64,000 bases of DNA from a virus: the IMG/VR virus record IMGVR_UViG_3300030387_000070; one strand, written 5' to 3'. Shown here piece by piece: positions 8,957 through 60,810 of the stretch (position 1 is the first letter of the stretch; each line of letters opens with the position of its first letter). A model generated the notes under the pieces. The model saw nothing but the letters and a program-made list of their open reading frames with translations, ran no database searches and was not told where the DNA came from. A program made the position numbers and the translations under genes.

Positions 8957-9139
8957 ATGCTCAAATATGGAAATATAACGTGTAAACGTTGTGGTATTAC
9001 ATGGTATGGACCAAAATGCGGAAAGCTTTACTGTGAAGAGTGTCGTAAGGTTGTAAACAACGAGAAGAGTCTCAAATGGTACAGAAGTAATAGAGAGCTT
9101 GTTGCAAGGAATCGTGCAGAGAGAAAGGCAATGAGGTGA
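8957..9139 (+). CDS. small zinc-ribbon protein
   Basis: CKRCG..CGKLYCEEC pairs followed by a basic tail. Sits immediately upstream of the recombinase. Confidence 0.5.
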   Translation: MLKYGNITCKRCGITWYGPKCGKLYCEECRKVVNNEKSLKWYRSNRELVARNRAERKAMR

Positions 9140-9963
9140 ATGTGATGAGTGCAGTTGTTGAAAGAAAAGAAGAACAGATATCTAAATTGATCTATTTTAA
9201 TCCGAAGCCTTCTGTTCCGGCTAAAAAACGTGGTGTTACAAAAAGTAAGCAGAAGCGCAAGCGTAATATTTCTCCAATTAGAAGCTTGGATGATGTTCAA
9301 ATGATTTCGGAATACTTCTGGGATAAAAAGCAATATCGCAATTGGTGTCTATTTAATGTAGGTATTGCAACTGGTTTGCGTGCTAGTGATTTGCTCAAAT
9401 TGAAGGTTTCCGATATGTCTTATTGCCTTTATAATGGAAAGATTGAAGTGGTTGAAGACGCTGGAGTTTGCATCGTTGAAGAAAAAACATCTAAATATCG
9501 TGAAATCATTCTTACTCCAGAAGCGAGAGATATCGTTGAAACATACATTAAGATTGCGAATCTTGGATATGACGATTGGATGTTTCCGTCTCGGCAGGGG
9601 AGTTGGAAAAAGTCATTGAGGACAAATGGTGGAGATGGGAAAACTGGTATTCCTCATATTGCAGAACCCAAAAAGGCCGGTGATCCTATTGATGTTGATT
9701 CTTTTGCTCGTATCCTTCGTAATGCTGGCAGAGATTTGGGTCTTAATTACAAGATTGCATCTCATTCTTGCCGTAAGACATTTGGTTATCGTGAGATGTG
9801 TCTTAATAAGGATGACAACCAGGCATTGTCTTGGATTCAGGGTCAGTTGAATCATAGTAGTCAGGACATTACATTACGGTACGTTGGTTTTGATGAGGAT
9901 AAGGCAAAAGAATATTATAAGAAGACTTTTTATGGTGTGAATACACACAGCTTGGAAGACTGA
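9136..9963 (+). CDS. tyrosine recombinase / phage integrase family
   Basis: Catalytic signature present in order: GLRASD (Arg), EEKTSK (Lys), ASHSCRKTF (His-x-x-Arg), LNHSS (His), TLRYVG (Tyr). Confidence 0.85.
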   Translation: MNVMSAVVERKEEQISKLIYFNPKPSVPAKKRGVTKSKQKRKRNISPIRSLDDVQMISEYFWDKKQYRNWCLFNVGIATGLRASDLLKLKVSDMSYCLYNGKIEVVEDAGVCIVEEKTSKYREIILTPEARDIVETYIKIANLGYDDWMFPSRQGSWKKSLRTNGGDGKTGIPHIAEPKKAGDPIDVDSFARILRNAGRDLGLNYKIASHSCRKTFGYREMCLNKDDNQALSWIQGQLNHSSQDITLRYVGFDEDKAKEYYKKTFYGVNTHSLED

Positions 9964-15667: not shown

Positions 15668-16594
15668 ATGCTTACTGAAGAAAAAATCAACGCTTTTGCC
15701 GAAAGGTATTCTGATAAAAGCGGTAAGTTTGTTGTATCGACACTTAACAATGTTATGATCTATGAGGCCGAGTGTGGGTATGAGTTGTTTGATTTTACAA
15801 AAAATGATTTTGTAAAGATGTTTGCAAAATACAATTGGGTGAACTCAAGTCGTTCATTTAGAAATGTGAAATCAATAATCACTGGCTACATCAAAAGTGA
15901 AGATCGTACAAGTTTGTATGACTTGGCTGAATTTTCGGAAAATGACGTAAGTTCAGACGATATGTATGCAGACAAGTATTTTGCATCGGTTGATGAATTT
16001 GTTGACTTATTAAATAAATACGAAGAGCCATATCAGATTCGTATGAACGTGATTGCTGTATTATACTGGATCGGACTTACCGCTGGTGAAATTGTTAATC
16101 TAACAATCAATGATGTTGATTTTGAATCTCGTACTGTTCTCAATAGGACTGGTATTGATGCGAGGTTGATGGATATCATCAAGCAGTGTTATGAAATGAA
16201 ACAATATGATGCTCCCAACATGGGAGGATACAGAACGTTTTATGTCATAAACGGTGATTACATCCTTCGCAAAACAGAGGACAGGACTGGAGCAGACAGT
16301 GACCCAAAGATATCTACAAATACAATTCATACCTATTTTATGAGATTGAATGATATTCTCGAAAAAAGAGGTTGTTCTAAGATTTTGGACCAAAGACATT
16401 TAACAAGAAACAACGAGTATATCAAGGTTTATGACTATTGCAAAACTCATCCAGAATTTAATCTTGTAGAACTTAGCTTCGGAAATGGTAAAGATCCTCT
16501 TGCAGACATTATCGGAAGAAAGTGTAGCAAGGTAGCCTATATTAGCTTCCGGCAAGGATACAAGGGCTGGATTGAGTATTTCCATAAAAATTAA
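15668..16594 (+). CDS. tyrosine-recombinase-like protein, possibly catalytically degenerate
   Basis: IAVLYWIGLTAGEIVNLTINDVDF resembles the GLR..E box but has Thr in place of Arg. RHLTRN is a possible His-x-x-Arg box. The assignment is tentative. Confidence 0.35.
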   Translation: MLTEEKINAFAERYSDKSGKFVVSTLNNVMIYEAECGYELFDFTKNDFVKMFAKYNWVNSSRSFRNVKSIITGYIKSEDRTSLYDLAEFSENDVSSDDMYADKYFASVDEFVDLLNKYEEPYQIRMNVIAVLYWIGLTAGEIVNLTINDVDFESRTVLNRTGIDARLMDIIKQCYEMKQYDAPNMGGYRTFYVINGDYILRKTEDRTGADSDPKISTNTIHTYFMRLNDILEKRGCSKILDQRHLTRNNEYIKVYDYCKTHPEFNLVELSFGNGKDPLADIIGRKCSKVAYISFRQGYKGWIEYFHKN

Positions 16595-16670: not shown

Positions 16671-18884
16671 ATGAGAACGCTTTTGCTGTTCCGTGGAGCA
16701 CCAGGTTGTGGGAAGTCCACCTATATTAAAGAGCATAATCTTGAGCAGTATGTATTGAATGCTGATACACTTCGACTTATGTGCCAGAGCGCACAGGAAA
16801 CACCTGCCGGGCGGATGGAGATCTCTCCGCAGAATGATGATGTTGTATGGGAGATGCTTTTCAAACTGCTTGAGGTGCGTATGAGTCATGGCGAGTTTAC
16901 CGTGATTGATGCAACGAATTCCAAGACGGTCGAAATGAATCGTTATAAGAATCTTGCAAAACAGTATCGTTATCGGATGTATGTTATTGACATGACGGAC
17001 CTTCCGATTGAGGAATGCAAACGAAGAAACGCTCAGAGAGAATGGCTGAATCGAGTTCCTGAAGCGGCCATTGATAAGATGTACGCTCGGTTTGCTACTC
17101 AAAAAGTTCCTTCTGGTGTGACAGTTCTTCCTTCTACTACGGATGTGATGTCCGATTTGAACTACTGTCCGAATGACTTCAACCAGTGGAAGAAGATCCA
17201 TATCATCGGTGATGTTCATGGCTGTTATACTTGTTTAAGTGAATACCTTGGTGAGATGAAGGACGACGAACTGTATATCTTCGTTGGTGATTATCTCGAT
17301 CGTGGCATCGAAAACGTTGAGGTATTCAAGTTCTTGTGTGATGTTGTAAATAACAACCGCAAGAATGTGATCCTTTTGGAGGGCAATCATGAGTGTTGGC
17401 TAAACAAGTGGGGGCATGATGAACCGGTTCAGAGTGAAGAGTTTGCAAACTACACTCGTCCGCAGCTCTTTAAAGCCGGTATTGACAAGAACACTGCTCG
17501 TAAGATCTATTCCAGAGTAGGCCAATGTGCCTACTTTGAGTATGATGGGAAGCGGTATTTCGTGAGCCACGGTGGTTTGAGTTATCTGCCTTATTTTCTT
17601 CCTTTCGTATCTGCTGATCAGATGATTAAAGGTGTAGGTCGCTATCCTGATATGCTAACCGTGGCTGAGTCTTGGGAAAAATCGATGCCGGATAGCTACA
17701 TTCAGATCTTCGGCCATCGAAATGTGCAGGATGTTCCTATTGATATGGGGCATCGGTGCTACAATCTCGAAGGAAAAATCGAGTTTGGTGGATATCTCCG
17801 TTGCGTTGAACTTGAACACGGTCAGTCAATCAAATGTGTAGAAACCAAGAACGATGTGTTCCGAAAAGAGGAGCCAAAGACTGAAACTGCCGTTGAAATG
17901 AAAACTGAGTTCGATAACGCAGAACTTGTTAGTAAGATGCGTCAAAGCAAATATGTGTTTGAGAAGCGATTCGGAGATATTTCTTCTTTCAACTTCTCTC
18001 GTGAAGCATTTTATAAGAAGCACTGGGATGAGGTTTCTACCAAAGCAAGGGGATTGTTCATTAACACAAAGACGAATAAGATTGTAGCTCGAAGCTATGA
18101 TAAGTTCTTTGCGGTTGATGAGCGGAATGAAACGAGAATTGGAAACCTACAGAACACTTTGAAGTTCCCAGTGACTGCATATCTAAAAGAGAACGGATTT
18201 CTTGGTATCATTTCGTATGATGCAGAACAGGATGGTCTGTTCATTGCAAGTAAATCCACTCCTGAAGGGCCTTTTGCAGATATGTTCCGAAAGATTATTA
18301 TGGATACTACTTCCGATGAAGATCGTAAGAATCTGAAGGAGGTTGCCAAGGAGCATGGCTCCATCATCTTTGAGGTTATTGATCCTGTGAATGATGCTCA
18401 TATCATAGAATACAAGAAACCGCACATTGTTTTGCTGGATGTTGTTGCAAACGATATGAATTTCAGTGTGATAGATTATGATGACTTGAAACGTGTCGCA
18501 GAAAAGTGTCATCTGCAGATTAAGGAGAAGGTTAAAACCTTTGAGAACTGGAGTGAATTCTATCCTTGGTATGAGGAAGTCATGAATGAGAACTATCTGT
18601 ACCATGACATCGAGCATGTTGAAGGCTTTGTTCTGAGAGATAGTAACAACTTTATGTTCAAGTTAAAGCTTCCTTATTATAAGCATTGGAAGTTCCTGCG
18701 TGGTGTTATGAAGAGCGTCCAGAAACGTGGCTATTACGAAAACACCGCCAAGCTGTTTACGGCTGAAGATAATTTGTTCTATGGTTGGATGCGTGAGCAA
18801 CGAGAGAAAGATCAAGAGGCGTTCAGCAAGAAGGGAATCATTCAGCTGCGAAATGAGTTCTATGCAAGTCAGCAGAAGAGTTGA
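16671..18884 (+). CDS. polynucleotide kinase-phosphatase fused to an RNA-ligase-type nucleotidyltransferase (Pnkp-like RNA repair enzyme)
   Basis: P-loop FRGAPGCGKSTY. Calcineurin-type phosphoesterase boxes IHIIGDVHGC, GDYLDRG, EGNHE and SHGG. C-terminal module with ARGLFINT..YDKFFAVDE and LKENGFLG (a Kx[DN]G-type motif I). The three-domain order matches bacterial Pnkp. Confidence 0.75.
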   Translation: MRTLLLFRGAPGCGKSTYIKEHNLEQYVLNADTLRLMCQSAQETPAGRMEISPQNDDVVWEMLFKLLEVRMSHGEFTVIDATNSKTVEMNRYKNLAKQYRYRMYVIDMTDLPIEECKRRNAQREWLNRVPEAAIDKMYARFATQKVPSGVTVLPSTTDVMSDLNYCPNDFNQWKKIHIIGDVHGCYTCLSEYLGEMKDDELYIFVGDYLDRGIENVEVFKFLCDVVNNNRKNVILLEGNHECWLNKWGHDEPVQSEEFANYTRPQLFKAGIDKNTARKIYSRVGQCAYFEYDGKRYFVSHGGLSYLPYFLPFVSADQMIKGVGRYPDMLTVAESWEKSMPDSYIQIFGHRNVQDVPIDMGHRCYNLEGKIEFGGYLRCVELEHGQSIKCVETKNDVFRKEEPKTETAVEMKTEFDNAELVSKMRQSKYVFEKRFGDISSFNFSREAFYKKHWDEVSTKARGLFINTKTNKIVARSYDKFFAVDERNETRIGNLQNTLKFPVTAYLKENGFLGIISYDAEQDGLFIASKSTPEGPFADMFRKIIMDTTSDEDRKNLKEVAKEHGSIIFEVIDPVNDAHIIEYKKPHIVLLDVVANDMNFSVIDYDDLKRVAEKCHLQIKEKVKTFENWSEFYPWYEEVMNENYLYHDIEHVEGFVLRDSNNFMFKLKLPYYKHWKFLRGVMKSVQKRGYYENTAKLFTAEDNLFYGWMREQREKDQEAFSKKGIIQLRNEFYASQQKS

Positions 18885-22506: not shown

Positions 22507-22781
22507 ATATAGATTTCTTCCAACGGCGCAAGACTCAGCTTGAAGATACGCTTCTTTTGAAAAATCAGGCGGTCGATATGCTTGATTATTTAAAGACACA
22601 TTGTATCAACAGCGACCAGTATTGTGCTATTCGAGACTACATTGAAGAAGCTGCGAAGATTCTGGAGAGTGACCTCGAATACGCAAACAACAAGTTGCAG
22701 TCCGCATTCAGACCTAAGTATGGTCGGAATAACAGATTAACTCGTGCTCAATCTAAGATGTTCCGTGATAGAGAATATTAA
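22503..22781 (+). CDS. hypothetical protein
   Basis: Track ORF with a TTG start overlapping the previous stop. Confidence 0.45.
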   Translation: MNIDFFQRRKTQLEDTLLLKNQAVDMLDYLKTHCINSDQYCAIRDYIEEAAKILESDLEYANNKLQSAFRPKYGRNNRLTRAQSKMFRDREY

Positions 22782-22798
22782 AAATGGGGTGATGCCAT

Positions 22799-23011
22799 AT
22801 GAACACATGCAAGAAAATATGTAACTGGTGTGGTCGTGAAATCAAGCCGATAGGTAGCGAGCAGGGAATCAGTTTTGAGCATCAATACTCTTATGGTAGC
22901 CAACTTGATGGTTCACTTTTGAGTTTTGATTTGTGTCCTGAGTGTTCAGAACGGTTCCCAGTAGTGCTCGGCGCAATGTTTATACATAATCCATTAAAGG
23001 ACGATTTCTAA
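22799..23011 (+). CDS. small zinc-ribbon protein
   Basis: Track ORF with CNWCG...CPEC pairs. Confidence 0.5.
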   Translation: MNTCKKICNWCGREIKPIGSEQGISFEHQYSYGSQLDGSLLSFDLCPECSERFPVVLGAMFIHNPLKDDF

Positions 23012-23156
23012 CGGCGGGTGCCGTATGAAATATAAGCCATCAATAAACCAGACGGAGGATAATACATAAAATGAATAGTGCATGAATTGATTTAAGACGA
23101 TAACAGGAAACATAAGTGATTATCAATGGAACAAAATTACATAAAGGAGACTTGAT

Positions 23157-24257
23157 ATGGCAGATAGAATTTTTAATCTTCCTCAGACCCGTGGTTCTTT
23201 TGAGATGGCTGGTAAGGTCACCGGCACCCAGCGTAGTAACTTCTATAACGAGAAGGAGACTAAGAGTGGTGCTATGCGCCGTGTCCTGAGCTTTGGCGTT
23301 CAGACTTCCAACGAAAACACTTTCTACGTTGATCTGGCTGGTATGCCTCGTGATAAGGTTTACTTCTTCCGTCGTGCCGATAAGGATAAGGGCATCGAGA
23401 AGGATAAGAAGGAAGTCGCTTGGAAGGATCGTCTGACTTATATTGCACCGGAAGGCTACGACATGATTGGCGTTAAGGTCGGTGTTACTAAGAAGACGAA
23501 TGAGTCTGGTAAGGTCGTCAATGATAACAAGACTCTAACCGACTTCGATGCAGCTAAGGAGATTTCCGAGAACCTGCATGACGGTGACAACGTGTATGTC
23601 CGTGGCAATATCGAGTACAGCACCTATAACGGCAAACACCAGATTCGCTTTGTTCCTACTCAGGTTTCTCTGAGCTCTAAGGAAATCGACTTCGATGCAG
23701 AGGGTTTTGAAGAGCTGGCTCTGTTTACTCAGACCATTGTTTATACTGGTTGCCGTAAGAGCGATGAGTGCGATGAGGTAGTTGTCGATGCAAAGATCGT
23801 GAACTACAACACCATTGAGGATGCAGAGTTCTTCATTGATTATAAGGCAAACGCTCAGAATAAGGTTCTGGCTGATTCTATTCGTAAGCGTCTGAAGCCT
23901 TATACTAGCTTCGAGTGTTTTGGTCCCATCGTTAATCAGCAGAAGGTTGAGGAAGTTGAGACTGAGAATATCTGGGGTGGTCCTAACAAGATGAAGCGTC
24001 AGAGCACTCCGGCAATTCGCAAGCTGTATATCGAGGGTGTTAATCCTGATTCCTTTGATCCGAATCCTGGTGATAAGGACGCGGAGCCCACTTACACTGA
24101 GGACAATATCTCTGAAGCACGGGCAAAAATTGCTGCCAACGCTCAGGCAAAGAAGGACTTCGACGGCAAAGCTGCTGAGAACGACACTTCTTGGTGGGGT
24201 GGTTCTAACAAGTCTACTGCAACTCCTGATGATGAGGAAGATATCAACTGGGGCTAA
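23157..24257 (+). CDS. putative ssDNA-binding protein
   Basis: Inferred from position directly upstream of a Sak4-like ATPase, the strong RBS AAAGGAGA, and an acidic C-terminal tail (..TPDDEEDINWG) like SSB tails. No canonical OB motif recognised. Confidence 0.35.
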   Translation: MADRIFNLPQTRGSFEMAGKVTGTQRSNFYNEKETKSGAMRRVLSFGVQTSNENTFYVDLAGMPRDKVYFFRRADKDKGIEKDKKEVAWKDRLTYIAPEGYDMIGVKVGVTKKTNESGKVVNDNKTLTDFDAAKEISENLHDGDNVYVRGNIEYSTYNGKHQIRFVPTQVSLSSKEIDFDAEGFEELALFTQTIVYTGCRKSDECDEVVVDAKIVNYNTIEDAEFFIDYKANAQNKVLADSIRKRLKPYTSFECFGPIVNQQKVEEVETENIWGGPNKMKRQSTPAIRKLYIEGVNPDSFDPNPGDKDAEPTYTEDNISEARAKIAANAQAKKDFDGKAAENDTSWWGGSNKSTATPDDEEDINWG

Positions 24258-33323: not shown

Positions 33324-36300
33324 ATGCCAAGTAGTCTACACACACACTCGAATTACAGTCTACTAGATGGGTACTCTTCTCCTGAAGAAAATCTAAAAAG
33401 AGCATCAGAACTTGGTTTGAAAGCCATTGCCATTACGGAACATGGTGAGGTAACAAGCTGGCCGTACTATTCTGAACTAAAAGGCAAGTATCCGAATGTC
33501 AAACTTCTTTATGGTATCGAGGCATACGAGTGCGAAGATAGGGAAGTCAAGGACAAGAATAGTAAATATTGGCATTTAATCATTATTGCCAAGAACGAAG
33601 CTGGTCGTCAGGCAGTCAATCGCTTATCTACACTCGGTCATCTTCATGGCTTTTACAGCCGTCCTCGTATCACAAAAGAGGATATCGCTAAGGAAGATAC
33701 GAATAATTTGATTATCCTGTCTGCTTGTTTGGCGAGTAGGCTGTCAAGAACGGATGATTATGACACTTGTGTCAAGCTGGTTCAAGAGTATAAGAGCTTA
33801 TTCCCTCACTATTATCTTGAGGTTCAGGCTCATGCAAACAGTGAACAAGCAAAATATAATCAGAAAATCATGCGGTTGGCAAACGATACTCATACAAAAG
33901 TAGTCGTCACAAACGATGTTCATGCTGCTACCAAAGAGGATCTTTATTATCAAGATTATTTCCTTCGTATCGCTCATGATACGGAAACCGCCACAGAAAT
34001 CTATGAAGGGTGCTACTTCATGTCTCGTGATGAGCAGCATAGAGCCCTTGATAATCAGATTGGATACGATGCGGCAGAATGGTGTATCAATAATACTGAC
34101 GAGGTTGCTGATCTGTGTGATGATGTGGATATGCCTTGGCATGAACCGGAACTTCCCAAAATTGAGATTCCGCCACAGTATTCTAATTCGGCAGCTTATC
34201 TGAAAGACCTTGTAAAAGAGGGATGTAAGAAACGTAGCATTGATAAGTTTGATGTAGAAAAGCAGAAAATCTATCGAAAACGTGTTGATGATGAGCTGTT
34301 TGTCATTGAGAAGAAAGACTTCTGTGACTACTTTTTGATTCTGGTTGATTACATCAACTGGTGTAAGAAAAATGATGTCATTGTTGGCCCTGGTCGTGGT
34401 TCTGCTGCTGGTTCTCTTGTATGTTACCTGATTGGCATTACGCAGCTTGATTCCATCAAGTATGAACTTGACTTCGGACGATTCCTTACCATTGAGCGAA
34501 AAGACCTTCCTGACGTTGATGTTGATGTCAGTGACCGTGCCAAGGTTGTCGAGTATCTGACACAGAAGTATGGAGAAGATCGAGTAGTTCAGGTTATGAA
34601 CATCGTGTACACTACTCCGGTTACTTCAATTCAAGATGTTGGTAAGGTGCTCGGTTTCCCGTATGCCGAGATAAGAAAAATCAGTGAGAAGTTCGTTCAA
34701 AAGACATGGAAAGATTGCCTTGAAGCCAACACAGAAGTAGCTGAGAATCCAAAATATAAGGAACTACTTGATATTGCAAGTCATATCAATGGTCGCCCAC
34801 GAGGATATGGTATCCATGCTGGCGGTGTTATTGTTTGCCGACATCCTTATTACGAGTATATCGGTATCCGGCATGGTACTGACGGAGAGCACGTTATTTC
34901 CGTTGATAAGGTGATGGACGAGAAGATTGGACTTGTTAAGTTTGATATTCTTGGTGTTGCGTCGCTGGTTGCCATTGATGAAGCGAAGCGTGAGGATAAT
35001 ATTCCAGACTGGGAAATTGATATCAACAATCCTGAATTTGAAAACGACAAGGCAACTTACGATTTGATTTGCTCCGGTAAGACAGACAATCTATTCCAGA
35101 TTGAATCGTCCGGCATGAAAGATCTGGTTGCGCAGCTTCAACCTAGGTCGATTGAAGAACTATCCGCTTTGATTGCTCTTTATCGCCCTGATGCAATGCC
35201 GTCCATTCCTACATACGTTGACTGCAAGTATCATCCCGAACACATTCATTATTTCCATCCTGATATGGAACCAATTTTCCGCAGTACCTATGGCGTGAAC
35301 ATCTATCAGGAACAGAGTATGAAGCTCACAAAGGTCTTTGGTGGCCGAAGCGATGCTGGTGCTGATAGAATGCGTAAGTGCTTGGCAAAGAAAAAACCTG
35401 AGAAGGTCAAGGAAGAGGTAGAACTTCTTCACGATGAAATTCTTGCAAATGGATACGATAAAGCAACCGCTGAGTATATTTGTAACGAGTTGTCAACGAA
35501 GGGCGGCTATGGTTTCAATAAGTGTATTTCTGGCAACACGAAGTTGTGGAGAATGAGAAGTGGTCGGTTTGAGCCTACTGTTGCAGAAATGTACAAGATT
35601 CGCAATGATAGGAAGTTTGCTATCTTGACAAATCACACACATCTTAGGGACAAATATAGACGATACGGTTACGGTAGTGCGTTGTCAATGTGTGATGATG
35701 GACGCATTCGGATGAATAAAATTATTGATATCAAGTATTCTGGATATCGAATGCTGTATCGTGTAACAACTGAGACCGGTGCGACCATTGAATGTACAGA
35801 TAATCATAAATTCCCGACAACTGATGGCATTAAGTTGCTTTCTGATATGAGAATTGGTGATGAGTTATATGAGATTGGTGCTTATGAGGTTTGCAGAAAC
35901 AAGTATAATCTGACGGATGGAAATTTCGAAAGCAATTTGCCGAAGCCGGGACAAATGGGGTTCCAGACGAAGGAATTTAGTGCGAATCGTCTGTTTGAAG
36001 AGACGAAAGAAAAGAATAGACTGAAAAGAAGCCCATGTGAAATTTGCGGTAGAGAATATTCCGAAGATGCTCGTTTTGAAGTACACCACAAAGATTTTGA
36101 CCATACGCATAATGTACCTGATAACTATACTTGGTGCTGTGCATCGTGTCACAAGAAACTTCATTACGCTCACGGGCGAGTAAAACAGTATGAAAAGGGC
36201 ATCCCGTCAAAGACCGCTAAGATTATTTCTATTGAGGAAATTGGTTTTGATGATGTCTATGATGTGACAATGGATGCTCCGAATCACAATTTTGTAGTGT

Positions 36301-37340
36301 CAACTGGTATTGTAACTTGCAACTCTCATTCACAAGCCTATGCTGACATCTGTCTCCAGACTGCATATTTGAAAGCCCACCATCCGCTTGCATTCTTTAA
36401 GGCTATGCTGAACCTGAATAAAGCAAAGGTCGGCAAGGTCAACAAGATTATGGTGGATGCACGCAGCTTTGATATTCAGATTCTTCCGCCGAGTATCAAT
36501 CGTTCCGGCATGGACTTTACTGTGTCAAATGGTAAAATCCTGTTTGGCTTATCTGCTATCGGTGGTATTGGCGATACGCTTGCTGAAACTATCATTGCAG
36601 AACGAGATAGAAATGGAAAATTTAAGGGACTTGATGATTTCACGAGTCGTGTTCGTGCAACGAAGGCGCAGATTATTGCATTGGTTAAATCCGGTGCGAT
36701 TCCTACAAAGAACAAACGAATATTCTTGGAAAAGTACATTACCAGCGGTCTGGAACAATCTGAGTTTAAGCCAGTCAGTACACTTCCTACCAAGGCAGTT
36801 TTGCTGAGTAAGTGGGGTATTGATACAGAGCATTATAAGGTTGGTAAAAAGGTTGACAAAGAAACCGTCTTACGGATCTATAATGAAAAGCGCCGTGTCG
36901 TACATGAAACCGAGAAGCTGAAAAAGAAAGAAGCGTATATGGACGAGCAGACCACAAAATATCTACAAGATGAAGAACTTTGGGAGTTCCAGACTTTGCA
37001 GACCTTTATCAGTGACCCGAATCCTTTCGAGAAGGCATTTACTTATATCAAGGATTTCTCTGAAATCGAAGAAGGTGATTCTTGTGTACTGGTTGGTATT
37101 ATCGCAAAGATTCAGAAGAAGAAAACGAAGACTGGTATGCAGTTTGCATTTGTAAATCTGTATTCTGGCGATGGTATTATTGAGCTGACCGTATGGCCGA
37201 GAGTCTTGTCGGATTATCAGGATTTGATTGTAAAGGGAAGTCAGGTGGCTGTGCTTGGAAAGAAGGAAGATGAATCGCACGTTATTGCAAGCAACTTCAA
37301 ACCTTACAAGCAGTGGTTGCATGATAGAGAGATAGCGTAA
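33324..37340 (+). CDS. dnaE: DNA polymerase III alpha subunit (DnaE-type) interrupted by an intein
   Basis: PHP N-terminus (LHTHSNYSLLDG, ITEHG). GPGRGSAAGSLVCYLIGIT, ERKDLPDVDVDV, HAGGV. GYGFNK|C...N|SHSQAYA..AYLKAHHP. Confidence 0.9.
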   Translation: MPSSLHTHSNYSLLDGYSSPEENLKRASELGLKAIAITEHGEVTSWPYYSELKGKYPNVKLLYGIEAYECEDREVKDKNSKYWHLIIIAKNEAGRQAVNRLSTLGHLHGFYSRPRITKEDIAKEDTNNLIILSACLASRLSRTDDYDTCVKLVQEYKSLFPHYYLEVQAHANSEQAKYNQKIMRLANDTHTKVVVTNDVHAATKEDLYYQDYFLRIAHDTETATEIYEGCYFMSRDEQHRALDNQIGYDAAEWCINNTDEVADLCDDVDMPWHEPELPKIEIPPQYSNSAAYLKDLVKEGCKKRSIDKFDVEKQKIYRKRVDDELFVIEKKDFCDYFLILVDYINWCKKNDVIVGPGRGSAAGSLVCYLIGITQLDSIKYELDFGRFLTIERKDLPDVDVDVSDRAKVVEYLTQKYGEDRVVQVMNIVYTTPVTSIQDVGKVLGFPYAEIRKISEKFVQKTWKDCLEANTEVAENPKYKELLDIASHINGRPRGYGIHAGGVIVCRHPYYEYIGIRHGTDGEHVISVDKVMDEKIGLVKFDILGVASLVAIDEAKREDNIPDWEIDINNPEFENDKATYDLICSGKTDNLFQIESSGMKDLVAQLQPRSIEELSALIALYRPDAMPSIPTYVDCKYHPEHIHYFHPDMEPIFRSTYGVNIYQEQSMKLTKVFGGRSDAGADRMRKCLAKKKPEKVKEEVELLHDEILANGYDKATAEYICNELSTKGGYGFNKCISGNTKLWRMRSGRFEPTVAEMYKIRNDRKFAILTNHTHLRDKYRRYGYGSALSMCDDGRIRMNKIIDIKYSGYRMLYRVTTETGATIECTDNHKFPTTDGIKLLSDMRIGDELYEIGAYEVCRNKYNLTDGNFESNLPKPGQMGFQTKEFSANRLFEETKEKNRLKRSPCEICGREYSEDARFEVHHKDFDHTHNVPDNYTWCCASCHKKLHYAHGRVKQYEKGIPSKTAKIISIEEIGFDDVYDVTMDAPNHNFVVSTGIVTCNSHSQAYADICLQTAYLKAHHPLAFFKAMLNLNKAKVGKVNKIMVDARSFDIQILPPSINRSGMDFTVSNGKILFGLSAIGGIGDTLAETIIAERDRNGKFKGLDDFTSRVRATKAQIIALVKSGAIPTKNKRIFLEKYITSGLEQSEFKPVSTLPTKAVLLSKWGIDTEHYKVGKKVDKETVLRIYNEKRRVVHETEKLKKKEAYMDEQTTKYLQDEELWEFQTLQTFISDPNPFEKAFTYIKDFSEIEEGDSCVLVGIIAKIQKKKTKTGMQFAFVNLYSGDGIIELTVWPRVLSDYQDLIVKGSQVAVLGKKEDESHVIASNFKPYKQWLHDREIA
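35523..36323 (+). mobile_element. intein (267 aa) with HNH endonuclease domain inside DnaE
   Basis: Inserted in the conserved GYGFNK-SHS box. Begins CISGNTKLW, has block B IECTDNHKF, an HNH core CEICG..FEVHHKDFDHTHNVPDNYTWCCASCHKKLH, and ends NHNFVVSTGIVTCN followed by Ser. Confidence 0.85.
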
Positions 37341-37352
37341 GAGGGTTATAAA

Positions 37353-39683
37353 GTGGCAGATAAGAAATTTAATGAAAATATGATCCGTTGCTACATTAGG
37401 ATAAAACGAGTCTTTTATCCGAAAGATGGGAAGGAGGTGGAGCCCGGCGGCTTCGCCACTTTCTCTGCCGAAGTGATAAAAGTCAAGCAGGGGAACCCCA
37501 TTATGAGCCGATACAGTGACCTCCGACTGAAAGGCAACGTCCCTAGCCTTGATATGAATAAGACTTATTCGTTCTGTGGTGAGTATGTTCACCATGAAAA
37601 GTTTGGGGACCAGTATAAAATCGTCTATATGAACGAGTTCCAAGAGATTACTGACCCAGAAGAACAGAAAAGTTTTCTCCATTTTATCTTAACAGAACAT
37701 CAGTTTGAGATGCTTTACGAAGCATTTGATAATCCGTATGAGATCATCAAGAACGGTGATATCAAGTCTCTTTGCACTGTTAGTGGTATCACAGAAGGTC
37801 GAGCACAGAAAATTATCGATGCCTTTGAAAATAACATTGATAACAGCGAAGCATACACGAAGCTGATTGAGTATGGTTTGACTCCAAGTGCAATCGGAAA
37901 ACTTGTTCATCAATATCACGGTGCAGACACTCTTGTGAAGAAAATTGAAGAGAATCCTTATGTTCTGATTGACGATGTATATGGGATTGGATGGAAGAAA
38001 GCTGACGCTCTTGCTTTGAATATGGGATTGAAGCCAAACTCTCAGTTCCGAATTGAAGCTTACGTCATGCATTTTCTTGCTGATCGTGCCGAAGAAGGCA
38101 ATTCTATCATCCCGGCAAACCAGACAATCAATAGTTGCATTAAGGAACTTGGCTTGGATGAGGGTGACCAAGAGGTTATCAAGAGAGCACTTTTCCATCT
38201 GCACGATGTCCGCGAAACGCTTTGGTGGAGTGATGATCGTCAGGAATTTGCTTTAACAAGAGTGTGGAATCTGGAAAATAAGATTTCAAAGGAAATTAAG
38301 CGTCTGGCGGATGCACCTGTCGAGCCGATTGGTCGAAACATGGATGCTGCAATCGACGAAGCAGAACATGCTCTTGGCATCGAGTACACTGAGGAGCAGA
38401 GAGATGCTATTAAAAAGGTATGCTCTAGCAACATCTGTATCTTAACAGGCTACGGCGGAACTGGTAAAAGTACCGTTGTCGCTGGTGTTCTAAAGGTTCT
38501 TCGTGGTAAGTCTTTTGCTCAGACTGCACTTTCTGGTCGTGCCGCAGCTCGTATGCAGGAGATTACTGGTCAGGATGGAAAGACCATTCACCGTCTTCTT
38601 GGCTACGACATCGAGAACGGTGGGTTTGTTCACGATAAGGACAATCCTCTGGAAGAAGACATTATCATTCTGGATGAGACCTCTATGGTTGGAGCTCAGT
38701 TGTTCTATGACTTGATTCAGGCTATCGAGACCGGAAAGCGATTCATCATGATTGGCGATGACGGCCAGCTTGAGAGTATTGGTATGTGCAACATCTTCAA
38801 GGATATGCTTGCCTCCAAGGTTGTTCCGGTTGCTCGCTTGACGAAGATTCACCGTCAGGCTGCTAAGTCAGCGATTATCACAGAGAGCATCAAGGTTCGT
38901 AATGCCACGCAGTTGGTTCCTTACGGTTGGGCTGGTAATGAGATTCGTGGTGAGCTGCGTGATTTGGAGCTAGATATCTACAAGGATGCAGGCGAGTCGT
39001 TTAACCACATCATCAATCAATACCGTACCTTATATAATAAGGTAGGGAATGACAGCGCAAAGATTCAGATTGTACTTCCGCAGAAGCTCCGTGGTAGCAT
39101 TTGCACCTACGAGGTGAATAACGCCATTCAGGAAATTGTAAATCCGAGTCGTGGTCAGGCAGAAGCAAAGGTCACAATCTACGGTGATGGCAAGGATAGA
39201 GTGTACACTCTGCGTGAGGGCGATCAGGTCATTATCAACAAGAATAACTATGAGCTTCATACATACAATCTCAAGACAAAGAAAAAGGAAGAGAAGTGTC
39301 CGGTGTTCAACGGAAACCGTGGCATTATCCGAAAGATTGAGAGTAGTTTTATTCTGGTTGACTTTGACCAGTGGGGAACTATCTTCATTCCTCATTATTT
39401 TGGTGGGAACAACATCTGGGCAACACTTGAACTCGCTTATGCTTTGAGTTGTCATAAACTGCAAGGTAGCGAAGCTCCGTATGTAATTGTCGGCATGGAC
39501 AACTCTGCATACCTGATGTTGACGAGAGAATGGCTCTATACGGCCATCACTCGTGCCAAGAAGTATTGTGTGATTTGCGCCGAAACTCATGCTCTTGATC
39601 GGGCTGTAAAGACTTCAAGAGTGCCATATAAGCGGACGTTCTTGAAGGAATTTTTACGGAAAGAATTTTCAGAAAAGCGTTGA
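37353..39683 (+). CDS. RecD-like SF1 DNA helicase
   Basis: Walker A ILTGYGGTGKST and Walker B IIILDETSMV. C-terminal YALSCHKLQGSEAPYVIV..TAITRAKK. Confidence 0.8.
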   Translation: MADKKFNENMIRCYIRIKRVFYPKDGKEVEPGGFATFSAEVIKVKQGNPIMSRYSDLRLKGNVPSLDMNKTYSFCGEYVHHEKFGDQYKIVYMNEFQEITDPEEQKSFLHFILTEHQFEMLYEAFDNPYEIIKNGDIKSLCTVSGITEGRAQKIIDAFENNIDNSEAYTKLIEYGLTPSAIGKLVHQYHGADTLVKKIEENPYVLIDDVYGIGWKKADALALNMGLKPNSQFRIEAYVMHFLADRAEEGNSIIPANQTINSCIKELGLDEGDQEVIKRALFHLHDVRETLWWSDDRQEFALTRVWNLENKISKEIKRLADAPVEPIGRNMDAAIDEAEHALGIEYTEEQRDAIKKVCSSNICILTGYGGTGKSTVVAGVLKVLRGKSFAQTALSGRAAARMQEITGQDGKTIHRLLGYDIENGGFVHDKDNPLEEDIIILDETSMVGAQLFYDLIQAIETGKRFIMIGDDGQLESIGMCNIFKDMLASKVVPVARLTKIHRQAAKSAIITESIKVRNATQLVPYGWAGNEIRGELRDLELDIYKDAGESFNHIINQYRTLYNKVGNDSAKIQIVLPQKLRGSICTYEVNNAIQEIVNPSRGQAEAKVTIYGDGKDRVYTLREGDQVIINKNNYELHTYNLKTKKKEEKCPVFNGNRGIIRKIESSFILVDFDQWGTIFIPHYFGGNNIWATLELAYALSCHKLQGSEAPYVIVGMDNSAYLMLTREWLYTAITRAKKYCVICAETHALDRAVKTSRVPYKRTFLKEFLRKEFSEKR

Positions 39684-59982: not shown

Positions 59983-60810
59983 ATGATTATTGATTGCAAA
60001 TCTATTGCACAAGATATCAAAGATAAAATCAAGAATATTATCGCAGAGGCCGATTACACTCCTGTTTTACATATTTATCAAGTAGGGGATAATCCTGCGT
60101 CTAATGCTTATATTAGAGGTAAATTGCGTGACTGTGAAGAGGTGGGGATCGAAGTAGAACTTATTAAACTGCCAGAAAATATTACTGAAGATGAATTGAA
60201 TAACAAGATCTTAGAAGATTATAATTGGGAATATGTGAACGGTATCATTGTTCAGCTTCCGTTGCCAAAACATATCAATCCTAAAAATATCTACATTCCA
60301 GACGCAGTTGATGTTGATGGATTTAATTCTACATCCAAATTTCAGCCTTGCACTCCGCTGGGCGTTATGAAGATTTTTGACTCCATCGGTTACGATCTGG
60401 ATGGCAAGAATGTGCTTGTGTGTGGTCAATCTGATATCGTAGGTCGTCCGTTGGTCAATATGCTGATTAAGCGGCACTGTAATGTAATCTCTGTGAATAG
60501 TACGGGTTCCGCCATGAAAGCCACTGCCATCGGATTTGGAATAGTCAATGTTATTATTTCCGCCGTTGGTAAGCGTGACTTTATTTCGACGTTTGATTTA
60601 TTTGATACGGATGTTTGCATCGACGTTGGTATCAACTATGACGAGAACGGAAAGCAGCACGGCGATTGTACTGATGCTGTTTATGATATGAAGGATGTCA
60701 AAGTAACACCTCGTATCGGCGGAGTTGGCCTTATGACTCGCGCTATGCTCTTATATAATGTATGTGTGGCGAAATACGGGGCAGAGAAGATGGAAGAGGT
60801 GATTGAATGA
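59983..60810 (+). CDS. folD: bifunctional methylenetetrahydrofolate dehydrogenase / methenyl-THF cyclohydrolase
   Basis: VGDNPASNAYIRGKLRDCEEVGI, GIIVQLPLPKHI, DVDGF, PCTPLGVMKIF, GQSDIVGRPL and TPRIGGVGLMTRAML. Confidence 0.85.
   Translation: MIIDCKSIAQDIKDKIKNIIAEADYTPVLHIYQVGDNPASNAYIRGKLRDCEEVGIEVELIKLPENITEDELNNKILEDYNWEYVNGIIVQLPLPKHINPKNIYIPDAVDVDGFNSTSKFQPCTPLGVMKIFDSIGYDLDGKNVLVCGQSDIVGRPLVNMLIKRHCNVISVNSTGSAMKATAIGFGIVNVIISAVGKRDFISTFDLFDTDVCIDVGINYDENGKQHGDCTDAVYDMKDVKVTPRIGGVGLMTRAMLLYNVCVAKYGAEKMEEVIE

What the first reader, a model, noticed from the sequence alone, without database searches (positions are those of the whole stretch)
35523..36323. HNH-containing intein in DnaE with a Cys-Asn C-terminal junction instead of His-Asn
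Seen:
- A 267-aa insertion splits the conserved GYGFNK / SHS..AYLKAHHP box of the Pol III alpha subunit.
- It starts with Cys (CISGNT) and has a block-B TDNH.
- It has an internal HNH nuclease (CEICG..HHKDFDH..N..CASCHKKLH).
- It ends ..VSTGIVTCN and is followed by Ser.

Established knowledge: class-1 inteins start with Cys or Ser and end in Asn followed by Cys, Ser or Thr. The penultimate residue is usually His, which assists Asn cyclisation. Most homing domains in inteins are LAGLIDADG, and HNH types are the minority.

Inference: this is an intein that must still splice, because the replicase depends on it, and it has an atypical penultimate Cys.
Basis: partly seen in the sequence, partly recalled or inferred. 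Interest (0 to 1): 0.5.

Follow-up and report, generated by a model that had tools for sequence, protein, structure and literature searches.

The report
Mobile HNH intein in phage DnaE
A phage DNA polymerase gene carries a self-splicing, mobile protein insert (an intein with its own HNH nuclease), and its odd-looking Cys-Asn ending is the normal state for a large phage-borne family of such inserts, so it is a clear but fairly ordinary example.

Summary
Window 35523-36323 encodes a 267-aa in-frame insert (CISGNT...GIVTCN|S) that splits the GYGFNK/SHS motif of a 1338-aa Pol III alpha gene (33324-37340). More than 110 protein clusters at 96-98% identity are exactly 1071 aa (1338-267).

It is a class-1 intein: Cys1, block B TxxH, block F Asp and His, terminal Asn and +1 Ser are all present, and the predicted fold is HINT. 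It carries a nested Cys4-zinc HNH nuclease.

Among 133 full-length homologues from a 1.84-billion-protein library, all at the same DnaE motif, the penultimate residue is Cys in 68, Ser in 60 and His in none. It has switched at least 27 times on the family tree. Non-His penultimate residues are already known to be common in phage inteins.

The element looks recently mobile. An identical ~1.2-kb module (the intein plus up to ~400 nt of downstream extein) sits in backbones about 12% apart. dN/dS is 0.035 overall and 0.025 for the HNH module.

In passing: 7 of 55 close relatives in IMG/VR carry a 227-nt group-I-intron-like insert 7-8 nt from the intein site.

Verdict: a new member of a known kind; modest interest.

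The parts
33324..35522 (+). dnaE N-extein (PHP, palm and fingers up to ...GGYGFNK)
   Evidence: ORF. Pfam PHP, DNA_pol3_alpha and DNA_pol3_finger match. NCBIfam DnaE models end at residue ~734.
35523..36323 (+). Intein, 267 aa: class-1 HINT splicing domain with a nested HNH endonuclease
   Evidence: Translation. Intein_splicing scores 41.3 bits and TIGR01445 33.8 bits. Exactly this stretch is absent from the 1071-aa alleles. Foldseek top hits are all inteins.
35523..35540 (+). Block A (CISGNT), with the Cys1 nucleophile
   Evidence: Cys1 is present in 127 of 127 family members.
35571..35672 (+). Conserved three-helix insert (aa 17-50) between block A and the first beta-strands; role unknown, possibly DNA recognition
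   Evidence: The AF2 model has helices 20-28, 30-35 and 39-48 with pLDDT up to 94. M23, N28, A33, L41 and K44 are >=85% conserved. The insert is kept in the natural mini-inteins.
35790..35816 (+). Block B (ECTDNHKFP), with T92 and H95 of the TxxH motif
   Evidence: T92 is present in 126 of 127 and H95 in 127 of 127. The block aligns to block B of the Ssp DnaB and DnaE inteins.
35892..36206 (+). Endonuclease module (aa 124-228): linker plus HNH. It is dispensable for splicing, because the natural mini-inteins lack it
   Evidence: Seven mini-intein relatives (161-178 aa) lack exactly this stretch. dN/dS of the module is 0.025.
36036..36164 (+). HNH core (aa 172-214): CEIC...EVHH...N...CASCH, a Cys4 zinc site plus the catalytic His and Asn
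   Evidence: Pfam HNH scores 18.5 bits, below its cut-off. C172, C175, H188, H189, N201, C206, C209 and H210 are each present in 124-127 of 127 members. The family profile hits the HNH of a group II intron maturase, 6me0. HNH or HNH_3 matches 7 of 7 members tested.
36255..36299 (+). Block F (VYDVTMDAPNHNFVV), with D247 (F:4) and H255 (F:13)
   Evidence: D247 is present in 116 of 127 (another 10 have Asn) and H255 in 126 of 127. The block aligns to block F of the Ssp DnaB and halophilic DnaE inteins.
36303..36326 (+). Block G (TGIVTCN) plus the +1 Ser codon. The penultimate Cys266 codon TGC is at 36318-36320, and the terminal Asn267 codon is at 36321-36323
   Evidence: Sequence. Asn267 is present in 127 of 127. 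In the 133-homologue census the penultimate residue is Cys 68, Ser 60, His 0 and the +1 residue is Ser in 131 of 133.
36324..37340 (+). dnaE C-extein (SHSQAY..., HhH and OB domains)
   Evidence: HHH_6 and the OB fold match. The stretch is contiguous with the N-extein in the 1071-aa alleles.
35491..36719 (+). Module shared without a single difference with the occupied allele L005: the intein plus <=32 nt upstream and ~396 nt downstream of extein (a co-conversion tract)
   Evidence: There are 0 differences over 1229 nt, against ~10 per 100 nt in the rest of the gene. The window backbone is L001-like and the L005 backbone is L007-like outside the module. Other alleles share shorter tracts, ending at ~36503 and ~36509.

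Best explanation
Window 35523-36323 is a mobile class-1 intein inserted between Lys733 and Ser of the invariant fingers motif GYGFNK|SHS in the Pol III alpha (DnaE) gene of an uncultured phage of about 135 kb, of Firmicutes type.

Splicing (inferred from established chemistry). After translation the HINT domain removes itself by the standard four steps:
1. Cys1 forms a thioester.
2. Ser+1 attacks it to give the branched intermediate.
3. Asn267 cyclises to release the intein.
4. An O-to-N shift restores YGFNKSHS.
The usual helper of step 3, the penultimate His, is replaced by Cys266. In this family that position is always a small residue, Cys or Ser. The help for Asn cyclisation is most likely supplied by the invariant block F His255 and Asp247, as in other inteins that lack the penultimate His.

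Mobility (inferred). The nested Cys4-zinc HNH nuclease (aa ~172-214) acts at the DNA level. It cuts or nicks empty dnaE alleles during co-infection or phage-prophage encounters. Repair from the occupied allele then copies in the intein together with a stretch of flanking extein, mostly downstream.

What is shown and what is inferred. Shown here: the boundaries, the motifs, the fold, the presence/absence polymorphism, the identical module in divergent backbones, purifying selection, and the family-wide Cys/Ser at the penultimate position. Inferred: actual splicing, nuclease activity and its cut site, and the role of H255.
For: - Exact boundaries: 1071-aa empty alleles at 96-98% identity. At DNA level the 801 nt are cleanly absent. 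The spliced product aligns without a gap to Taq Pol III alpha.
- Intein identity: Pfam and NCBIfam intein models score above their cut-offs. PDB sequence hits are to the DnaB and DnaE mini-inteins over blocks B, F and G. Foldseek top hits are all inteins.
- Catalytic set: C1, T92, H95, D247, H255 and N267 are invariant or nearly so in 127 homologues, and so are the HNH residues.
- Penultimate position: Cys 68, Ser 60, Gly 2, Ala 2, Leu 1 and His 0 in 133 homologues. In viral and genomic loci the pattern is the same, with Cys-Asn 48 and Ser-Asn 28. There are at least 27 switches on the tree and no strongly co-varying column.
- Mobility: there are 0 differences over 1229 nt between the window and L005, against ~10% elsewhere in the gene. 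The same module sits in L001-like and L007-like backbones. Tract ends differ between alleles. In IMG/VR, 4 of 55 close relatives are occupied.
- Selection: dN/dS is 0.035 for the intein and 0.025 for the HNH module, against 0.037 for the extein.
- Homing-cycle relatives: mini-inteins that lack aa 124-228 occur at the same site.
- Literature: phage inteins often lack the penultimate His, and a block F His may substitute for it (PMC5050341). F:4 and F:13 are recognised assisting residues (PMC4031507).
Against: - No splicing or cleavage experiment exists for this element or for any family member that I could find.
- Pfam HNH is below its gathering score on this copy (18.5 against 21.4).
- The AF2 model is only moderate (mean pLDDT 68.6). 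It is poor for the last 12 residues, so the geometry around Cys266 is unknown.
- This phage population recombines heavily across the whole gene. The shared module could therefore have spread by general recombination without nuclease action.
- The window and L005 share the same downstream tract end (~36720). That is not expected for two independent homing events.
- A role of the block F His in Asn cyclisation is not universal. Tori et al. saw no major role for it in two inteins (PMC2807308).
Confidence: 0.85

Rival explanations
1. Conditional splicing. Cys266, next to the scissile Asn, together with Cys1 forms a disulfide or a Zn/Cu-binding site. Maturation of the phage replicase would then be gated by redox state or metal availability, and the Cys/Ser alternation would reflect lineages with and without this switch.
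For: - Cys is kept at this position in about half of a large family, which argues it is tolerated or selected.
- Redox traps and Zn inhibition involving active-site Cys residues are known for the DnaE and DnaB inteins (structures 3nzm and 1zde appear among the fold hits; PMC6195587 is listed).
Against: - Cys and Ser have swapped at least 27 times with no co-varying partner, which fits near-neutral interchange (one nucleotide change: TGY to TCY or AGY).
- No coordinates were available, so the Cys1-Cys266 distance could not be measured.
- The C-terminal 12 residues of the model have low confidence.
Confidence: 0.08
2. The intein is real, but it spreads by ordinary homologous recombination between co-infecting phages. 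The HNH domain would be inactive as a homing nuclease, or would serve another purpose.
For: - The whole dnaE gene is a recombination mosaic in this population.
- The window and L005 share the same downstream tract end.
- Pfam HNH is below its cut-off on this copy.
Against: - The HNH catalytic and zinc residues are each present in 124-127 of 127 members.
- dN/dS of the module is 0.025.
- Where the nuclease has been lost, the whole module is deleted, giving mini-inteins. That is the expected fate of a nuclease that is useful only for homing.
- The identical tract is centred on the insert and is asymmetric.
Confidence: 0.12
3. The insert is a decayed or splicing-defective intein, or a non-splicing HINT/BIL-type domain. 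On this reading the dnaE allele is non-functional, and the loss of the penultimate His is a symptom of that.
For: The penultimate His is absent.
Against: - All the other catalytic residues are intact and invariant.
- The extein has dN/dS 0.037 and the intein 0.035.
- Occupied alleles occur in 134.7-136.9-kb viral contigs and in protein clusters of 337 and 42 member sequences.
- The +1 nucleophile is present, which type B BILs lack (PMC4031507).
- His-less inteins are known to splice (PMC5050341).
Confidence: 0.03

Closest known systems
Cyanobacterial split DnaE inteins (Ssp DnaE, Npu DnaE)
   Same: - Same host protein and the same fingers motif.
- Class-1 chemistry with Cys1.
- Blocks B, F and G align (7qil, 4kl5, 1zde).
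- The IntC part of NCBIfam PRK07373 aligns to the last 35 residues.
- They also lack a penultimate His. By my recollection Ssp has Ala and Npu has Ser; the related halophilic DnaE intein 7qil ends ...FIASN in the alignment.
   Different: - Their site is Y|C(=G)FNK (native junction AEY|CFNK, PMC3759424), three residues upstream of FNK|SH.
- They are split into two genes and carry no endonuclease.
- Their +1 residue is Cys, not Ser.
- Sequence identity is low (E ~1e-6 to 1e-9).
In-frame HNH inteins of actinobacteriophages, including those in DNA polymerase (Gosselin, Arsenault & Gogarten, bioRxiv 10.1101/2025.01.02.630785); example Gordonia phage Wojtek gp72
   Same: - A phage-borne intein with an in-frame HNH nuclease, in the same motif of Pol III alpha.
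- Wojtek is the best hit in GenBank phages (28.5% identity over 97% of the intein).
- That paper lists in-frame HNH inteins as rare and DNA polymerase as one of their hosts.
   Different: - Only ~28% identical.
- The Wojtek insert sits two residues upstream (YSF|C...HHN|N), ends in His-Asn, and is followed by Asn.
- The hosts are actinobacteria rather than a gut Firmicutes-type phage.
Chromosomal DnaE inteins at the same FNK|SH site in Actinomycetota and Chloroflexota genomes (for example Solirubrobacterales, Ktedonobacterales, Nesterenkonia)
   Same: - Same insertion point, ...N|SH[AS].
- The splicing blocks are related (partial profile matches of 45-75 bits).
   Different: - They end in canonical Ser-His-Asn (ANGIVSHN).
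- They match only the core of the profile. They lack this family's N-terminal helical insert and its HNH module.
- They are chromosomal rather than phage-borne.
Mycobacteriophage class-1 inteins lacking the penultimate His (for example Bethlehem gp51 RDF intein, Gly at G:6; Kelley et al. 2016, PMC5050341)
   Same: - They are phage inteins in replication or DNA-metabolism proteins with a non-His G:6.
- They have been shown to splice well. Restoring His slowed splicing in the RDF intein.
   Different: - The host proteins are different, and so by my recollection is the endonuclease type (LAGLIDADG).
- The G:6 residues reported there are Gly, Lys and Ser; Cys is not mentioned.

Membership tests
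Class-1 intein | N-terminal Cys or Ser nucleophile (block A) | tested here: met
   Cys1 is present, and in 127 of 127 family members.
Class-1 intein | Block B Thr-x-x-His | tested here: met
   T92-D-N-H95 is present. T92 is in 126 of 127 and H95 in 127 of 127. The block aligns to block B of solved inteins.
Class-1 intein | C-terminal Asn followed by a Cys, Ser or Thr +1 nucleophile (block G) | tested here: met
   The sequence reads ...TCN|S. The last residue is Asn in 133 of 133, and the +1 residue is Ser in 131 and Cys in 2.
Class-1 intein | Penultimate His (G:6). This is typical and assists Asn cyclisation, but it is not strictly defining | tested here: not met
   The residue is Cys266. The family has Cys 68, Ser 60 and His 0. 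Inteins without this His are accepted members of the class (PMC5050341; PMC4031507).
Class-1 intein | Block F assisting residues (F:4 Asp, F:13 His) | tested here: met
   D247 and H255 are present, in 116 of 127 and 126 of 127 members.
Class-1 intein | Precise in-frame insertion relative to intein-less homologues, in a conserved functional motif | tested here: met
   The 1071-aa alleles lack exactly these 267 aa. The spliced sequence is continuous with Taq Pol III alpha through YGFNKSH.
Class-1 intein | HINT fold | tested here: met
   An AF2 model (mean pLDDT 68.6) gives Foldseek hits 1-21, all inteins, at E 1e-5 to 1e-3. Confidence is moderate only.
Class-1 intein | Autocatalytic protein splicing that yields ligated exteins | not testable with these tools
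   It is inferred only, from purifying selection and from persistence in near-complete phage genomes.
Class-3 intein | No N-terminal nucleophile, plus the WCT triplet (Trp B:12, Cys F:4, Thr G:5) | tested here: not met
   Cys1 is present, B:12 is Phe97 and F:4 is Asp247. Only Thr265 at G:5 matches. The definition is taken from PMC4031507.
HNH (beta-beta-alpha-Me) endonuclease | The His...Asn...His catalytic motif with flanking CxxC pairs forming a zinc site, and a match to HNH profiles | tested here: met
   C172, C175, H188, H189, N201, C206, C209 and H210 are each present in 124-127 of 127 members. Pfam HNH scores 18.5 bits on this copy, below its cut-off of 21.4, but HNH or HNH_3 matches all 7 members tested. 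The family profile hits the HNH of maturase 6me0 at E 2e-5. YajD-family HNH matches at E 2e-5.
HNH (beta-beta-alpha-Me) endonuclease | Metal-dependent DNA cleavage or nicking | not testable with these tools
   No assay was possible. There is only indirect support, from dN/dS 0.025 and from deletion of the whole module in the mini-inteins.
Homing (mobile) intein | Presence/absence polymorphism at one site among near-identical host genes | tested here: met
   In the protein collection, 2 occupied clusters stand against 118 empty ones among the top 120. In IMG/VR, 4 of 55 are occupied.
Homing (mobile) intein | Co-conversion of flanking extein sequence with the element, and incongruence between element and host-gene history | tested here: met
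   An identical 1229-nt module sits in backbones ~12% apart. Tract ends vary between alleles. The intein haplotypes have dS ~1.4, against 0.6 for the extein alleles.
Cyanobacterial split DnaE intein family | Insertion at Y|CFNK, with the intein split into separately encoded N and C parts | tested here: not met
   This intein is contiguous and sits at FNK|SH, three residues downstream (native junction AEY|CFNK, PMC3759424).
Group I intron (the 227-nt insert seen in related alleles, not in this window) | A match to the RF00028 core structure at the curated threshold, with U.G at the 5' splice site and a terminal G | tested here: inconclusive
   RF00028 scores 39.7 bits (gathering score 50), E 1.2e-8, over the full model. 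P1 and P10 pairings that I read off the printed sequence would restore the reading frame. However, the nucleotide before the inferred 3' splice site is A.

The most novel reading that the evidence does not exclude
The Cys/Ser alternation at the penultimate position is functional tuning rather than neutral drift. In the Cys versions such as this one, Cys266 together with Cys1 makes splicing sensitive to redox state or to metals, so that maturation of the phage replicase, and hence replication, is gated by the state of the host cell. A second, independent novel reading concerns the ORF-less group-I-like intron found 7-8 nt away in sister alleles. It may compete with the intein-encoded HNH nuclease at the same hot spot, or be mobilised by it in trans.
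Probability: 0.08. Interest if true: 0.6.

Novelty: new member of a known kind. Interest (0 to 1): 0.3.

Why it matters
For annotation, the 1338-aa ORF should be read as a 1071-aa DnaE plus a 267-aa HNH intein.

For intein biology, the useful point concerns the family rather than this single copy. Hundreds of phage-borne DnaE inteins at one site have entirely given up the penultimate His in favour of Cys or Ser, while keeping the block F His and Asp. More distant chromosomal inteins at the same site keep His-Asn. That is a natural data set for asking how Asn cyclisation is assisted without that His. It also offers compact inteins (161-178-aa mini versions) with a Ser +1 junction that might interest protein engineers.

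The phage population around this window shows three states of one hot spot: empty, intein-occupied and intron-occupied. Clear co-conversion tracts are visible as well. This makes it a tidy system for studying homing dynamics in uncultured gut phages.

None of this overturns current understanding.

Tried and rejected
- The word-indexed protein search with the intein alone gave only 4 hits and suggested a rare family. The exhaustive profile search showed that this was a sensitivity artefact, so I dropped the idea.
- The search for related loci with the fragment-containing alignment A1 failed because it had no conserved stretch. I rebuilt the query as A2 from full-length members.
I redid it on gene-only alignments.
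- A megablast of dnaE against GenBank phages found nothing relevant, only a 60-nt match to Streptomyces phages.
- I considered calling this an SPbeta-type phage, because of a YorF-like gene and the gene order. The best cultured match is Brevibacillus phage Sundance at only 33% identity, so I make no such claim.
- I looked for a residue co-varying with Cys versus Ser at the penultimate position. No column stood out (highest mutual information 0.25 bits).
- The literature searches found no use of the phrase 'penultimate cysteine' with intein and no G:6 tabulation listing Cys. This is absence of evidence only. The library lacks most subscription papers and InBase.
- The geometry of Cys1 relative to Cys266 could not be examined. 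The structure tool returns no coordinates, and the last 12 residues of the model have low confidence.
- I could not reconcile the splice sites of the 227-nt insert with both a U.G 5' site and a terminal G. This is left unresolved.

Full report
**1. The observation**

Window 33324-37340 (+) is a single 1338-aa ORF. It matches the PHP, DNA_pol3_alpha, finger, HHH_6 and OB domains of the Pol III alpha subunit. NCBIfam DnaE models break at residue ~734 and resume at ~966-1001.

The insert scores above the curated cut-offs of Pfam Intein_splicing (41.3 against 35.8 bits) and TIGR01445 intein_Nterm (33.8 against 24.5). Pfam HNH is just below its cut-off (18.5 against 21.4). The PDB sequence hits are the Ssp DnaB, Npu DnaB and DnaE mini-inteins, over blocks B and F/G.

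**2. The boundaries are exact**

A search of the 5.8-billion-sequence collection with the whole ORF returned 120 top clusters. Of these, 118 lack the insert, nearly all of them exactly 1071 aa (= 1338-267), at 95-98% identity. Two carry an insert: P0005 (1338 aa, 97%, 337 member sequences) and P0094 (1340 aa, 74%, 42 members).

The empty alleles read GYGFN[A/K]SHSQAYAV across the site, 81 with Ala and 37 with Lys at the -1 position. At DNA level the 801 nt are cleanly absent from L001, L002, L003, L007 and L008. The in-silico spliced product aligns without a gap to Taq Pol III alpha residues 736-913 (3e0d, 2hpi) straight through YGFNKSH.

**3. What it is**

I aligned 127 full-length homologues (see section 4). 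The following residues are invariant or nearly so:
- Cys1: 127 of 127.
- Thr92 and His95 (block B TxxH): 126 and 127.
- Asp247 (F:4): 116, with another 10 Asn.
- His255 (F:13): 126.
- Asn267: 127.
- The HNH set Cys172, Cys175, His188, His189, Asn201, Cys206, Cys209 and His210: 124-127 each.

An AF2 model (mean pLDDT 68.6; the last 12 residues are poor) finds only inteins among its top Foldseek matches in the PDB: Ssp DnaB, Ssp and Npu DnaE, and Mtu RecA. The family profile also hits the HNH domain of a group II intron maturase (6me0, E 2e-5). All 7 members tested match Pfam HNH or HNH_3.

The class-3 signature is absent, since F:4 is Asp, B:12 is Phe and Cys1 is present. This is therefore a class-1 intein with a nested Cys4-zinc HNH nuclease.

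Seven natural mini-intein relatives (161-178 aa) at the same site lack exactly residues ~124-228. They keep everything else, including a conserved three-helix insert at residues 17-50. That defines the endonuclease module and shows the later stage of the homing cycle.

**4. The Cys-Asn ending**

The word-indexed search with the intein alone found only four fragments. The exhaustive HMMER profile search of 1.84 billion representatives gave a very different picture. It found 9167 hits at E<=1e-3 and 286 at E<=1e-30, and the best 150 nearly all matched over the full length.

I tabulated the junctions of those hits:
- First residue: Cys in 140 of 140.
- Last residue: Asn in 133 of 133.
- +1 residue: Ser in 131, Cys in 2.
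- Penultimate residue: Cys 68, Ser 60, Gly 2, Ala 2, Leu 1, His 0.

All of them sit in the same DnaE motif, Y[GSA]FN[KRA..]|C...N|SH[SA]. A subset is shifted by one residue.

An independent census of viral and genomic loci gave Cys-Asn 48 and Ser-Asn 28. The only His-Asn endings before a Ser (13) were all in a distant chromosomal clade (Solirubrobacterales, Chloroflexia, Ktedonobacterales, Nesterenkonia; ANGIVSHN|SH). That clade matches only the core of the profile.

On a neighbour-joining tree the penultimate residue changes at least 27 times, against a shuffled expectation of 45. No other column co-varies strongly with it. Cys and Ser are therefore interchangeable in this family, and the Cys here is inherited, not a lesion.

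The literature already records that phage inteins frequently lack the penultimate His (Gly, Lys and Ser are reported). It also records that restoring His can even slow splicing, and that an upstream block F His may take over the role (PMC5050341; PMC4031507). A dissenting result is that the block F His had no major role in two inteins (PMC2807308).

I found no paper that mentions Cys at this position. That is weak evidence, given how much of the literature the library lacks.

**5. Evidence that it is, or recently was, mobile**

- The window and the occupied allele L005 differ at about 10 sites per 100 nt over most of dnaE. Over 35491-36719 they have zero differences in 1229 nt. That stretch is the intein plus at most 32 nt upstream and ~396 nt downstream.
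- Outside that module the window backbone matches the empty allele L001 (A-type). L005 matches the empty allele L007 (K-type), which is ~12% divergent from L001.
- Against L001, the window is identical for 375 nt upstream. It then differs at AAT AAG versus AAC GCC, at TCT versus AGC for Ser+1, and at 16 sites in the first 100 nt downstream. The differences taper out by ~36720.
- Further occupied alleles from IMG/VR, on contigs of 134.9 and 136.9 kb, share shorter identical tracts that end at ~36503 and ~36509. A second intein haplotype, 92% identical at protein level, has different flanks.
- Between the two haplotypes dN/dS is 0.035 overall and 0.025 for the HNH module. That is as constrained as the polymerase (0.037). 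Synonymous divergence is ~1.4 between the intein haplotypes, against 0.6 between the host alleles.

This is the pattern expected of endonuclease-driven homing with asymmetric co-conversion. The gene is also a general recombination mosaic, so nuclease-independent spread cannot be excluded. The shared tract end at ~36720 in two different backbones remains unexplained.

**6. Context**

The surrounding genes form a phage replication module: a DnaB-like helicase, primase, RecJ-like nuclease, DnaE, a RecD-like helicase, ligase, ThyX and NrdD/G. There are tyrosine recombinases upstream, and FolD and a CopA-type ATPase at the 3' end. Related viral contigs are 120-141 kb long. The nearest cultured relative is Brevibacillus phage Sundance, at only 33% identity in DnaE, followed by human faecal phage contigs. 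The window holds no second copy of this intein family.

**7. Comparison with what is known**

The PolIII alpha fingers region is a recognised intein hot spot with several sites within 75 residues. Site 'a' is the split cyanobacterial intein (PMC4760082). That split site is AEY|CFNK (PMC3759424), three residues upstream of this one.

In-frame HNH inteins are a known minority type. They were recently reported in actinophage DNA polymerases (bioRxiv 10.1101/2025.01.02.630785). Gordonia phage Wojtek is the best GenBank phage hit, at 28.5% identity.

The element is therefore a new member of a known kind. The mildly new point is at family level: an abundant phage-borne clade in which the penultimate position is Cys or Ser and never His.

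**8. Seen in passing**

Of 55 close relatives in IMG/VR, 44 are empty, 4 carry the intein and 7 carry a 227-nt ORF-less insert. That insert interrupts the Phe codon of the same motif, 7-8 nt upstream of the intein site. It matches the Rfam group I intron model over its full length (39.7 bits, below the gathering score of 50; E 1.2e-8).

The pairings of an internal guide sequence with both exons, which I read off the printed sequence, would restore GGA-UUU-AAC. However, the nucleotide before the inferred 3' splice site is A, not G. The call therefore remains inconclusive.

**9. Verdict**

It overstated the oddity of the Cys-Asn ending, which is the family norm. Interest is modest (0.3).

Noticed in passing
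L155:2691-2917 (also L156, L157, L158, L166, L171 and L172); the equivalent point in the window is within the Phe codon at 35514-35516: Seven of 55 close dnaE relatives in IMG/VR carry a 227-nt ORF-less insert, 7-8 nt upstream of the intein site. It matches the Rfam group I intron model over its full length (39.7 bits, below the gathering score of 50; E 1.2e-8). The same hot spot therefore exists in three states: empty, intein-occupied and intron-occupied. The inferred 3' splice site is preceded by A, not the canonical G.
   Followed up: partly
L006:718-4758 (Gordonia phage Wojtek gp72, OL455890.1): The HNH-containing insert in Wojtek DnaE reads ATYSF|CVTGDT...GFIHHN|NIAHC. It is two residues upstream of the site used here and ends in His-Asn. 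The residue after the terminal Asn is Asn, which is not a usual +1 nucleophile.
   Followed up: no
Loci L050, L108, L051, L053-L055; proteins P0125, P0126, P0130, P0135, P0137, P0139: Homologous inteins of this family occupy three adjacent registers of the same motif: YxF|..|C-SAH, YxFN|..|[SC]SH and YxFNx|..|SH. The insertion point has therefore crept by one or two residues within one family.
   Followed up: partly
L015, L016, L017, L108, L117, L118, L119: Mini-intein derivatives of 161-178 aa occur at the same DnaE site. They lack exactly the linker plus HNH module (aa ~124-228 of the window intein). They keep the N-terminal helical insert and the Cys/Ser-Asn ending.
   Followed up: yes
window 16671-18884 (+) compared with L004:1-1733: The polynucleotide kinase/phosphatase-RNA ligase gene has no intein in this window. 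Its counterpart in the related phage contig L004 carries a LAGLIDADG intein (precomputed Pfam Intein_splicing and LAGLIDADG_2). L004 also has a SegE-like GIY-YIG gene at 22626-23585. This phage group hosts several kinds of homing elements.
   Followed up: no
window 36720 (downstream end of the shared tract): The identical tract shared by the window and L005 ends at the same position (~36720), although their backbones differ (L001-like and L007-like). Other occupied alleles end at ~36503 and ~36509. A shared end is not expected from independent homing events.
   Followed up: partly
window 37340-37353 compared with L001:13216-13449 and L005:14017-14253: Related contigs have a 77-78-aa ORF between dnaE and the RecD-like helicase gene. 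In the window the helicase ORF starts 13 nt after the dnaE stop, so that small gene is absent here, as it is in L004.
   Followed up: no
window 59983-60810 (+) and 61436-63994 (-); also 9136-9963 and 15668-16594: FolD-like and CopA-type P-type ATPase genes lie at the 3' end of the window, and two tyrosine-recombinase-like genes lie upstream. Some empty dnaE alleles lie on contigs of 305-468 kb. Together these suggest a temperate phage, or a prophage with host flank or auxiliary genes.
   Followed up: no
window 35571-35672 (intein aa 17-50): A conserved, confidently modelled three-helix insert sits between block A and the first beta-strands of the HINT domain. It is kept even in the mini-inteins. 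Its role is unknown; it might help in DNA recognition or be a family-specific structural element.
   Followed up: partly
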